Positions 18,001 to 21,000 of a stretch of 64,000 nt of DNA are shown in pieces. The stretch's first letter is position 1, and the number at the start of each line of letters is the position of its first letter. Source of the DNA: Waddliaceae bacterium (GTDB taxonomy: Bacteria > Chlamydiota > Chlamydiia > Chlamydiales > SLFE01); the NCBI GenBank assembly GCA_963783885.1, contig CAWAPJ010000001.1:1-64000 (forward strand). The letters are read 5' to 3'. The position numbers are program-made.

Positions 18001-21000
18001 TATTTCCTTCGCCAAGAAACTTTTTGGCATGTCCCAATTTTGTTTCAAAGTTGTGCACGCCGATATTCGGTTTCAACTTAATTTCCTTTACCTTAATGAC
18101 ATGCCTTGACTTTTTACTTTCTTTTTCCCGTTTTGTCTGATCATATCGAAATTTACCATAATCGATGATTTTACAAACCGGAGGTTTGGCATCAGGAACG
18201 ATCTCAACCAAGTCAAGACTTGATTCATCAGCCATAGCTTGCGCTTCCTTTGTCGAGATAATTCCAATTTGATTTCCATCTTTGTCAATCACGCGGACCT
18301 TGGGAACGCGTATTTGCTGATTTATCCTCAAACTTAGTTTCCTTCCTTATTCAATTTCAATTTGCTCGAAAAACTCGTTTAATCCGATAAGTTTTTGCTC
18401 GCTCCGATCAAAACCTGATCGGATGCTTATTTTGTTTTCCGCCTGTTCAATGTCCCCAATAAAAAGTCCAAAACCAACCCCGTCGCGCTCCATTGATTCC
18501 ACCTTTTTCGAAAGAGGCTCTTTTCTCTTGTCGCTTCTCGCTCTATATCCGAGCATGCGGCACCGAAGTTCAATTTCATCCGCATAGCTTTCCTGCTTTT
18601 CAGACAACGGAAAGATTCTCATCTGTTCGGGAAGCACCCAAAAAGGAAGCGACCCAATCCCTTTCTCCAGCAGCAATGCCGCTATACACTCAACCGAGTT
18701 AAAAAATGAACACCCGATGATCCACAGTGACTCTTCTTTCAACTCTGAGTTTATGTTTGGGAAACTTGTCCAAAGCCCCAAACTGGATCCAAGCCAGCGC
18801 CTGCCCAGTTCATCGATAAAATAATATTCAAGCCTGGGCCCTATAAATGATTTTTTTTCAAAATCAGAATCGATGCTTTCAGTTCGCAAGGGCTTAAACG
18901 CTTGATTTTTCTCAAAAGCTTCAACTAGTAAAGCTTCGGCTCTTTCCCAACTAATAAAAGATTTTTGAGTCCTTTTCCCACAGGGTGCAAGAACCCATTC
19001 ACCTTCAATAGAAAGCATTTTATTCCATTTATCAATGAAATGCAAGTAAGAATTCAATTCCCCGGGCACCTGAGACGCTTCGCAAAAGACATGCTGCATG
19101 TCGCTCCAGCATGCATTTGCCCCAAGAAGGCCGGCCGGATAAGGATTCTCCACCGGCAGGTGCTTACGATAAAATTCCGCGACCCTTATAGGTGGGCTTT
19201 TGGATATTGCCGCTGCGTAGGCCGAATGGGCGGATAAAAGCGCTTGAGGGCTGCCTCTTCCGCTAAAAACGACCTCAAGTCCCTTTTCGAAACAAAAATC
19301 CTTCCAAATTCCTTTAAAAACATCAATGATCCCGCAAAAAAGGGGACCTAAAATCCACCCATCCTTTTCAGCAGGGGCAACCGAGGCAAATAATTTTTTT
19401 TGAAGGCCTATCTCTTGATGGCCTTTATGATTTTTCAGCTTCTTTAAAAATTCTTTTAAATGATTTTGGTCAGGAAAAATGGTGCCGGTTATTCTTGTCA
19501 CCACCCGACCATTTTCGTTAAAAATTTCGATATCGAGAAGTTTCAAAGCCCTAAATCCTTTAAGGTCGGATGGATGGGGCAAGGGGCATTCGTCATAAAA
19601 ATCGCCGATTTGCAAAATTTGAACCTCTGCAGGAGAGGATTTCAGCTCACTGGCCTTGAGGGGTTCTTTTTTGTAGTTAAAAAATTCCCGGGCGTTTTGC
19701 CGTATCATAGCGCTGCTTTTAACTTTGATCTCTTCGACCGTTAAAGCTCTGATATGCTCTTCAATCAGCTCGAATGCGTCCTTACTGACAGGGTGTTCGA
19801 ATAAAAAATCGTAATAGAACCCAATGTCAGTCGCCCCTCCCCTTAAAATTTTGGCGTTTGGGAAGGCACGCGTAACCGCTGCGGCCATGAGGCGGGCACC
19901 GCTTTCTCTTAAAGCCTTTAACGGCAAAGATCTCATAAGAAAATTGGTGGGATATAGCTGACTCGAACAGCTGACCTCCACGATGTCAACGTGGCGCTCT
20001 AACCAACTGAGCTAATATCCCACAGGCTAAGCAATTAAACCGTTCATTATAAGCTTAGGGAGAAAAAATAGGAAGAAAATTCTACAATTTATTGATTTTC
20101 ATAAAGATAGACACAAAAATTGACAAGTTAATCGGGCGGGGGTAACTTCAGGATATAAAGCAGCGGAGGGAACATATCATGTTTTGCCTTTATAGAACAG
20201 CGGCCATAATTATGGTCATTTTTTGTTTTACAGCTCAGGCAGCAGTCGCCGAAATCGTCAATGTTGTCGTGACCTATAACAAGGATCTTTGCGACAGCCG
20301 CTGCAACCAGCTGCTTGAAAGAACATTTAAAAAAATGGAACAGACCACTGAAGTGAGCGCTAGCCCGGGGCAGATCCTTCTCAAGTGGGAACCGAATACA
20401 AAATTTACTTACCATTTAGTCAAGCGGCCGATGCAGATGGTCGGTCTTTCCATCGATGGAATCTTTGTTACTGTCAAGGGAACAGCCCATGTTGCCGGTC
20501 AGAAAGCCAGCATCACGTCGCTTGGCGACAATACAAAGTTCGATCTAACAAGCGCCCCCGCCCCAAAAGGCGGCCAATATGTCCAGTACAACAACCCTAT
20601 TTCCTATGAGCTGCTTCCGGATGTCAGAGAGCAGCTGCGAGAAGCTCAAAAGAAGCGCGAGCTGGTGACAGTTTCCGGCTTCCTGCTCATGCCGCATCGC
20701 ATGCCGCTCACCATTGTCGTCAATAATGTAAGCATTGAAAAAGAAAAAAAAGAAAAAAACCAATTAAGATGAAGTTTCTTGTGGGTTTGATTGCTGCATG
20801 CCAACTTTTTGGGAGCCTGTCTGCAGAGTCCCTTGCAAAGAGCAAGGAAGATTTGCTGAAACATCAGGTTTATCGTTATCCTTATACCGATCTTCCGCTT
20901 CAGCTTGAAAAACACCATCAAAAGTCGATCCTTATCTTTACATTCGGAAGCTTGCTCGATAAAAATTCGGCAGCAAAAACATTCAGCAAGGAAGCCGTGG

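What a model noticed while it worked through the whole genome (the two positions that open the first line are those of the whole stretch)
18347..19981. Catalytically dead ThrRS paralog kept at the head of the thrS-infC-rpmI-rplT-pheS operon across environmental chlamydiae [...]
The gene in the classic thrS position encodes a ThrRS-fold protein (513-544 aa) that has lost two of three zinc ligands and both editing histidines, yet stays an intact ORF under purifying selection. The same pseudo-synthetase sits before infC in 17 relatives from 14 families, which charge threonine with a second, canonical thrS elsewhere.
Evidence so far: Only the anticodon domain matches Pfam; TIGR00418 scores 97 bits against a 384 cut-off. 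Of 19 candidate loci fetched, 17 show the degenerate gene directly upstream of infC-rpmI-rplT-pheS; the 15 canonical loci show none of these genes; 16 of those 17 genomes have a full-score thrS. Alignment: the MNC Cys, the HRA His and both HxxxH editing His (E. coli C334, H511, H73/H77; numbering recalled) are lost in 18 of 18 degenerate rows and kept in 15 of 15 canonical rows; G000 also lacks the motif-3 Arg. dN/dS 0.24 versus the sister species and 0.15 versus a second congener. Canonical copies form one clade, support 100 (quick tree, call 55). Paper searches found no description.
(Added by a program. Inside this text positions count along the whole contig: contig position 1 is position 1 of the stretch shown here. 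"Call 12" and the like, gene names such as g00115 and contig names such as C1 are that model's own, and its searches are not shown. The text may have been shortened before it was handed on; [...] marks where a part breaks off. The agent that wrote the report below was given it as the finding of a first reader that could run no searches.)

Follow-up and report, generated by a model that had tools for sequence, protein, structure and literature searches.

The report
Displaced native ThrRS kept as pseudoenzyme
Many environmental chlamydiae keep their original threonine-tRNA enzyme gene in a form that has lost both active sites but is still protected by selection, while an imported gene does the enzyme's work, so the old protein probably has a new, untested job.

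Summary
Real. A thrS-like ORF lies directly before infC in 94 of 120 chlamydial loci (24 of 27 families). None of 100 aligned copies keeps a complete zinc, editing or threonine site; all 43 working copies do. dN/dS is 0.09-0.26 in all 24 pairs. Main correction: it is probably not a paralog of the working enzyme. It has the layout and TGS-less build of the single intact Verrucomicrobiota thrS, whereas the working chlamydial thrS sits beside parA and groups with Woesearchaeota/Peregrinibacteria enzymes. So a foreign gene displaced the native one, which stayed on as a pseudoenzyme. The retained core is the editing-domain fold plus a stripped class II core with new fixed motifs; the anticodon domain is dispensable. 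Orthologues are transcribed above the working thrS in three published datasets. Function is inferred only: most likely a non-essential binding or scaffold factor of translation. Ten paper searches found no description; this scan noted the family on five other genomes.

The parts
   Evidence: ARAGORN; Rfam RF00005 68.6 bits; upstream on the same strand in 90 of 94 loci that have the gene
18347..19936 (-). ThrRS-derived pseudoenzyme, 529 aa, no TGS domain
   Evidence: AlphaFold2 pLDDT 92.4, pTM 0.90; best fold match 1qf6 E 1.9e-39
19427..19936 (-). N2 (editing-fold) domain and linker helix, residues about 1-170; HxxxH lost, D180/C182/H186 kept in this genome only as a partial site
   Evidence: domain present in 97 of 100 copies; dN/dS 0.22
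19691..19708 (-). family-specific motif M77-x-x-x-N81-A82 in the N2 helical part
   Evidence: M77 in 97 of 100, N81 in 79, A82 in 84; M77 and N81 in 0 of 43 working copies; N81 in 0 of 30 Verrucomicrobiota
18641..19426 (-). shortened class II catalytic fold, residues about 171-432; zinc Cys region deleted, motif-2 and motif-3 Arg lost
   Evidence: dN/dS 0.33
18359..18625 (-). anticodon-binding domain, residues 438-526; E600 and R609 kept, R583>E; absent in about half the family
   Evidence: Pfam PF03129; present in 49 of 100 copies
17819..18331 (-). infC (IF3), TTG start
   Evidence: TIGR00168 212 bits
17610..17804 (-). rpmI (L35)
   Evidence: ORF; named from its sequence by recall and from the E. 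coli gene order; not scanned against a family library
17252..17608 (-). rplT (L20)
   Evidence: ORF; named as for rpmI
17213..17239 (-). terminator-like hairpin after rplT
   Evidence: pattern match only; 3 found against 3.9 expected by chance
16170..17192 (-). pheS
   Evidence: Pfam PF01409 315.6 bits

Best explanation
History (well supported, about 0.8): the ancestor of the sampled chlamydiae had the PVC-type TGS-less thrS in a tRNA-Val(GAC)-thrS-infC-rpmI-rplT-pheS cluster and acquired a foreign TGS-bearing thrS beside parA, which took over charging and editing. The native gene lost both active sites but was kept. Status (shown by computation, about 0.92): a folded, transcribed, selected pseudoenzyme. 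Mechanism (inferred, about 0.4): it is a non-essential binding or scaffold factor of the translation machinery. The N2 domain, with its new M77/N81/H88 surface, and the stripped class II core bind a structured RNA or a ribosomal particle without catalysis, as the ThrRS-derived mL39 does in the animal mitoribosome; it is made together with IF3, L35 and L20. The confidence given is for the whole chain including this mechanism.
For: Active sites: none of 100 copies has more than 2 of 4 editing, 1 of 3 zinc or 1 of 4 threonine-site residues; 43 of 43 working copies have all. Database relatives are bimodal: 52 of 146 and 143 of 145 keep at most 5 of 12 key residues, the rest 10-12. Selection: dN/dS 0.255 and 0.167 for G000 pairs, 0.09-0.21 in 22 pairs from five other families, anticodon-less forms included. 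Origin: 61 of 61 Verrucomicrobiota genomes have one over-cut-off thrS; 30 of 30 fetched lie by infC, 29 of 30 have at most 36 residues before HxxxH, 2 have tRNA-Val(GAC) upstream; 0 of 43 working chlamydial loci hold infC, 38 hold a parA-like gene; tree and AU tests; A13, W196, H237 and F300 are shared by dead and Verrucomicrobiota copies against the working copies. Retained core: N2 in 97 of 100, anticodon domain in 49; a 344-aa member folds at pLDDT 95.5 into N2 (Z 22.9, rmsd 1.7, 150 residues to 1tje; Z 17.6, rmsd 2.2 to mL39) plus a 170-residue class II core. Core less acidic than in working copies (median net charge -1 against -8), conserved K161, K165, K303. Expression in supplements: Parachlamydia PUV_RS05920 follows infC and rpmI over the cycle and lies above thrS; Waddlia WCW_RS04425 3644 against 917 normalised counts in RBs; Protochlamydia pc0701 log2 RPKM about 15 against about 9-10.
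Against: No direct evidence of any ligand. The acceptor-stem hairpin Tyr205 survives in 1 of 100 copies, the anticodon domain is lost in 51 of 100 and the median pI is only 6.5, so tRNA-Thr is an unlikely ligand and RNA binding is not demanded by charge. Mean column identity is 24-30%, low for a ribosomal protein. Position and co-expression are inherited from the ancestral operon. pc0701 was not detected in the Protochlamydia EB proteome while the working thrS was, and its very high RPKM may include tRNA reads. At least 7 and about 10 presence changes on a proxy tree, mostly in small genomes. No column of IF3, L35, L20 or the working ThrRS co-varies with loss. Trees are LG+G4 quick searches with a long stem to the dead clade; mixture-model runs did not finish; a dead-plus-working clade is only weakly rejected (p-AU 0.053 and 0.025).
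Confidence: 0.4

Rival explanations
1. Regulatory or accessory subunit of an unrelated enzyme (HisZ or polymerase-gamma accessory-subunit type): the dead class II core dimerises and scaffolds a protein partner; N2 is the docking module.
For: The stripped core keeps motif-1 G200 (86 of 100), D375-x-x-G-R-W and a new helix motif with S296 (79 of 100, 5 of 43 working copies). Its fold matches a polymerase-gamma chain at Z 16.2 and HisZ at Z 12.7, tied with ProRS and SerRS. HisZ is a documented case (PMC9437257 passages).
Against: No partner gene travels with it; fold likeness is shared by all class II synthetases; the zinc site that could sense threonine is gone.
Confidence: 0.27
2. Modulator of the working ThrRS through heterodimers or through competition for tRNA.
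For: Duplicated ThrRS heterodimerise in Anabaena (PMC4787780 passages); motif-1 region is retained; transcript levels exceed the working thrS.
Against: The two are only about 30-33% identical at best and of different origin; the dead subunit has neither activity to contribute; working ThrRS shows no column that changes with loss of the dead copy (low power: 10 genomes counted as lacking it).
Confidence: 0.12
3. A new catalytic or small-molecule binding activity in the remodelled N2 cleft or core.
For: New fixed polar residues N81 (79 of 100), H88 (66), S296 (79), S410 (69); D180 kept in 60, H337 in 61.
Against: No column is invariant; no conserved set of metal ligands or ATP-binding arginines.
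Confidence: 0.1
4. Functionless relic in slow decay, held only by selection against misfolded product or for read-through into infC.
For: Graded shortening from 610 to 299 aa that follows genome size (rho 0.54, kin not independent), repeated loss, about 16 anticodon-domain changes; a decayed remnant in G047; no EB proteome detection.
Against: dN/dS stays 0.09-0.21 even in the shortest forms; new motifs are fixed across 26 families; 14 of 26 genomes without the gene have tRNA-Val 27-407 nt from infC, so clean deletion is possible and the ORF is not needed as a spacer.
Confidence: 0.08
5. Still a working or editing ThrRS with unusual residues, and the only ThrRS of G000.
For: G000 has no other thrS; the least eroded family member passes the TIGR00418 cut-off (449.8 bits).
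Against: All catalytic sets are incomplete in 100 of 100 copies; the missing gene falls in an assembly gap; both congeners' family and 149 of 151 genomes have an over-cut-off match.
Confidence: 0.03

Closest known systems
Bacterial threonyl-tRNA synthetase (TIGR00418; E. coli 1qf6; Verrucomicrobiota TGS-less type)
   Same: N2 + class II core + anticodon domain fold; place before infC and lack of TGS as in Verrucomicrobiota
   Different: zinc, ATP, threonine and editing residues lost; ordering-loop region deleted; anticodon domain optional
Mitoribosomal protein mL39 (MRPL39)
   Same: ThrRS N-terminal region recruited to a non-enzymatic role (PMC1950548 passage); profile hit E 3.7e-9 over positions 38-152; Z 17.6
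   Different: mL39 is eukaryotic, carries TGS and no class II core (TGS by a PDB label; core by recall); independent origin; ribosome binding is untested here
HisZ and other class II synthetase-like pseudoenzymes (polymerase-gamma accessory subunit, GCN2 HisRS-like domain, SLIMP)
   Same: dead class II core kept for a binding or regulatory role (PMC9437257; folds)
   Different: derived from HisRS, GlyRS or SerRS (origins partly recalled); here from ThrRS, by displacement of the native gene, with the editing fold retained
Anabaena ThrRS T1/T2 pair
   Same: two thrS genes in one genome
   Different: T2 aminoacylates and keeps HxxxH and DxCRGPH; apo-T1 edits (PMC4787780); here one copy has neither site
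Trans-editing factors AlaX and archaeal ThrRS-ed
   Same: AlaX shares the N2 fold (Z 18.1 to 1v7o)
   Different: HxxxH lost; ThrRS-ed has a DTD-like fold (PMC7373986)

Membership tests
Threonyl-tRNA synthetase (active) | ThrRS fold and domain order | tested here: met
Threonyl-tRNA synthetase (active) | TIGR00418 score over 383.65 | tested here: not met
   162.5 bits; note one dead relative passes at 449.8
Threonyl-tRNA synthetase (active) | Zinc site C334/H385/H511 | tested here: not met
   only H385 in G000; at most 1 of 3 in 100 of 100 copies
Threonyl-tRNA synthetase (active) | Motif-2 R363 and motif-3 R520 | tested here: not met
   L and C in G000; R363 in 8 of 100, R520 in 65 of 100
Threonyl-tRNA synthetase (active) | Aminoacylation of tRNA-Thr | not testable with these tools
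   needs an assay
N2/AlaX-type trans-editing factor | Editing-domain fold | tested here: met
   Z 22.9 to 1tje for a 344-aa relative
N2/AlaX-type trans-editing factor | HxxxH plus CxxxH | tested here: not met
   at most 2 of 4 in 100 of 100 copies
mL39-like ribosome-associated ThrRS derivative | Homology to the ThrRS N-terminal region | tested here: met
   shared ancestry through ThrRS, not a specific link
mL39-like ribosome-associated ThrRS derivative | TGS domain | tested here: not met
   0 of 100 copies cover half of TGS
mL39-like ribosome-associated ThrRS derivative | Stable ribosome binding | not testable with these tools
   no ribosome data for these organisms was available
HisZ-type regulatory subunit | Class II core without adenylation residues | tested here: met
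HisZ-type regulatory subunit | Defined enzyme partner | not tested
   no whole-proteome profiling was possible; no candidate partner found
Orthologue of PVC native thrS | tRNA-Val/infC context and TGS-less build as in Verrucomicrobiota | tested here: met
Orthologue of PVC native thrS | Supported clade with Verrucomicrobiota ThrRS | tested here: inconclusive
   constrained tree 23.5 log units better than the free quick tree, p-AU 0.81, which does not show a clade; unresolved in the free tree

The most novel reading that the evidence does not exclude
After a gene transfer replaced its enzyme function, the native ThrRS of chlamydiae became a lineage-specific ribosome-associated or initiation-linked accessory protein: a bacterial, independent counterpart of mitoribosomal mL39, present in most environmental chlamydiae and lost in the small-genome lineages.
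Probability: 0.22. Interest if true: 0.92.

Novelty: new variant of a known kind. Interest (0 to 1): 0.72.

Why it matters
It is a large synthetase-derived pseudoenzyme family (at least 143 clusters at 50% identity) that my searches did not find described and that databases label threonine--tRNA ligase or hypothetical protein. It documents an unusual route to a new function: after displacement by a foreign gene the native essential gene was repurposed in place instead of lost. The series from 610 to 299 aa shows which parts selection keeps. Cultured amoeba symbionts carry it, so the function is directly testable, and phylogenomic or metabolic work that picks the gene before infC as thrS will be misled.

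Tried and rejected
Complex prediction of the window protein with the sister species' working ThrRS (residues 228-635): no answer, score 0.00; no evidence either way; the homodimer was not tested. RNA runs for the window: none was listed. Cluster names for the nearest intact proteins could not be obtained, so most 'P' rows in the trees have no taxon. Mixture-model tree of 83 rows did not finish. Relocated copies in the 26 genomes without the gene at infC: none; only the working thrS and other synthetases matched (G083 ends at a contig edge). Co-variation of IF3, L35, L20 and working ThrRS columns with gene loss: four candidate columns, none significant in independent pairs. Rfam in 16000-21000: only the tRNA; promoter and terminator patterns at chance level. 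Operator-type autoregulation through anticodon mimics was set aside because the anticodon domain is lost in 51 of 100 copies; no hairpin search upstream of the working thrS was run. Paper searches gave no description of the family; term searches in the main text of PMC5388404, PMC9437257 and PMC4787780 found no 'Chlamyd'. Subscription papers and bioRxiv supplements were not visible; five scanned PDFs of PMC5451489 were not searched.

Full report
Observation. The minus-strand ORF ending at 18347 is intact and is followed by infC, rpmI, rplT and pheS. Only the anticodon domain passes Pfam; TIGR00418 scores 162.5 bits against 383.65. PDB sequence hits are ThrRS. With E. coli numbering checked on the K-12 gene, the protein has H73>E, H77>R, no C334, R363>L, D383>M, H511>G and R520>C, and keeps D180, C182, H186, H337, H385, E600 and R609. 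AlphaFold2 gives pLDDT 92.4 and pTM 0.90 and the model matches E. coli ThrRS best.

The missing working gene. G000 has no over-cut-off thrS. In the sister species G151 the working thrS (665 bits) lies by a parA-like gene, purB and tatC; none of these three has a match in G000, while 12 of 12 ORFs from the sister's infC region do. The absence is an assembly gap. Of 151 phylum genomes, all in the same order, 149 have a match over the cut-off.

Distribution, defined by locus. I located infC in 150 genomes and fetched 120 loci; left out were 20 genomes of the large genus g6 (family f4), G131 and 8 others, so f4 is undersampled (6 of 26). A thrS-like ORF lies directly upstream in 94 of 120, in 24 of 27 families, 282-610 aa apart from one contig-edge fragment. 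It is absent in 6 of 6 f4, 7 of 13 f3 (one at a contig edge), 9 of 15 f6 and four others; a profile search of these 26 genomes found no relocated copy. tRNA-Val(GAC) lies just upstream in 90 of 94, and in 14 of the 26 without the gene it lies 27-407 nt from infC. A proxy tree from IF3, L35 and L20 needs 10 presence changes (7 forced by strong branches) and 16 anticodon-domain changes; genomes without the gene are smaller (median 1.5 against 1.9 Mb) and length follows genome size (rho 0.54; kin are not independent).

Anatomy. I aligned 100 copies (the 94, G000 and five; infC adjacency was checked for G151 but not for G152, G153, G155, G156) with 43 working copies. No copy has more than 2 of 4 editing, 1 of 3 zinc, 1 of 4 threonine-site or 3 of 5 ATP-site residues; working copies have all, bar one ATP residue in one row. 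TGS is absent in 100, N2 present in 97, the anticodon domain in 49. Among database proteins 52 of 146 and 143 of 145 keep at most 5 of 12 key residues and none keeps 6-9. New conserved residues are M77 (97), N81 (79), A82 (84), H88 (66), K165 (79), S296 (79) and S410 (69); the register around M77 is uncertain by one residue and some active ThrRS have Met there. No column is invariant. A 344-aa member folds at pLDDT 95.5 into an N2 domain (Z 22.9, rmsd 1.7 over 150 residues to the E. coli editing domain; Z 17.6 to mL39) and a class II core of about 170 residues (Z about 16, tied among a polymerase-gamma chain, ProRS and SerRS).

Selection and expression. dN/dS is 0.255 (CI 0.19-0.34) against G151 and 0.167 against G152; eight neighbours give 0.06-0.20; 22 close pairs in five other families give 0.09-0.21. 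In supplementary tables, of which I saw only matching rows, the gene directly before infC (taken as the orthologue by position and label, not by sequence) is transcribed: Parachlamydia PUV_RS05920, 'hypothetical protein', about 10.8 at 24 h against 9.3 for thrS and moving with infC and rpmI (PMC7474615 file 5, unit not seen); Waddlia WCW_RS04425 3644 against 917 normalised counts (PMC6090853 file 6); Protochlamydia pc0701 log2 RPKM 14.5-15.6 against 8.9-10.3, but not detected in the EB proteome, and possibly inflated by tRNA reads (PMC5451489 file 2).

Origin. The least eroded copies score better against non-chlamydial ThrRS than against the working chlamydial ones. In the phylum of an Akkermansia locus (Verrucomicrobiota; sister relation to chlamydiae recalled), 61 of 61 genomes have an over-cut-off thrS and no second ThrRS-like gene at E 1e-20 apart from one 73-bit partial match. 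The 30 best-scoring loci all hold infC, 29 have at most 36 residues before HxxxH, and 2 have tRNA-Val(GAC) upstream; 12 of 12 named Verrucomicrobiota loci also hold infC. The working chlamydial genes never lie by infC (0 of 43) and mostly by a parA-like gene (38 of 43). The dead-family profile scores Verrucomicrobiota enzymes at a median 511 bits and working chlamydial ones at 403. In a 53-row LG+G4 tree the working copies group with Woesearchaeota and Peregrinibacteria enzymes (SH-aLRT 99) among Bacillota-type enzymes; the dead clade attaches unresolved elsewhere. AU tests: dead plus working p 0.053 (31 rows) and 0.025; working plus Verrucomicrobiota p 0.002; dead plus Verrucomicrobiota 23.5 log units better than the free quick tree, p 0.81. 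The named outside sequences were found with a query close to the working copy, the dead clade has a long stem, and mixture models did not finish, so the donor is not identified. Context, build and tree together favour displacement of the native gene (inference, about 0.8).

Mechanism. Shown: dead sites, fold, selection, conserved core. Inferred: a binding role. Loss of the acceptor-stem hairpin (Y205 in 1 of 100) and of the anticodon domain argue against tRNA-Thr or a ThrRS-type operator as ligand (the E. coli operator mechanism is described in PMC7373986 passages). Constant retention of N2, conserved lysines, a less acidic core, co-expression with IF3/L35/L20 and the mL39 precedent (PMC1950548 passage) make an accessory RNA- or ribosome-binding role my first choice (0.4), ahead of a HisZ-type subunit (0.27), a ThrRS modulator (0.12), a new activity (0.10) and a functionless relic (0.08). 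Against the first choice: operon position is inherited, sequence identity is low, pI is moderate, one proteome lacks it, and no co-variation with IF3, L35 or L20 was found.

Novelty. Ten paper searches and passages of five synthetase papers gave no description; I saw listings and passages, not whole texts. The ESM Atlas holds two nearest clusters named 'hypothetical protein', commonest taxon Chlamydiota. This scan has noted the same family on five other genomes; the Verrucomicrobiota comparison and the displacement tests were done before I saw those notes. Synthetase-derived pseudoenzymes are a known kind, so this is a new variant: a ThrRS-derived, phylum-level family that arose by displacement.

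Noticed in passing
window:19937-19944 and relatives: Only 8 nt separate the tRNA-Val CCA end from the start codon; in relatives the H73-equivalent codon is typically about 45 nt from the tRNA end, leaving little room for a Shine-Dalgarno site. 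Processing of the tRNA may leave a near-leaderless message.
   Followed up: partly
L081:1404-3179 (G025): The least eroded dead copy passes the TIGR00418 cut-off (449.8 bits) and a near-identical database entry is named threonine--tRNA ligase, although it lacks the zinc Cys and both editing His: a systematic misannotation risk.
   Followed up: yes
L054:1515-2606 (G069): The slot between tRNA-Val and infC holds an unrelated alpha/beta-hydrolase-like gene instead (E 4.4e-5, under the Pfam cut-off).
   Followed up: partly
L187:10995-12512 (G151): The parA-like gene and the UPF0137 gene beside the working thrS form one 505-aa ORF here, whereas G014 has two genes; fusion or sequence error.
   Followed up: no
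L127-L166: The working thrS lies next to a parA-like and a UPF0137 gene in 38 and 37 of 43 loci. From recall these resemble chlamydial plasmid pGP5/pGP6, which may hint at how the foreign thrS arrived; not tested.
   Followed up: no
L077 (G047) upstream of infC; L122 (G057): A short decayed N2 remnant (40% over 35 aa, E 3e-4) in G047 and a split anticodon domain in G057 show loss in progress.
   Followed up: partly
window:20179-24027: Three ORFs on the + strand (197, 252, 824 aa) without a passing Pfam family, conserved in the sister species at dN/dS 0.10-0.17.
   Followed up: no
window:24845-30517: A 1890-aa ORF that looks like the doubled UvrA of chlamydiae (recalled from its sequence; not scanned).
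   Followed up: no
P0291: A 683-aa dead family member with large insertions in the catalytic fold.
   Followed up: no
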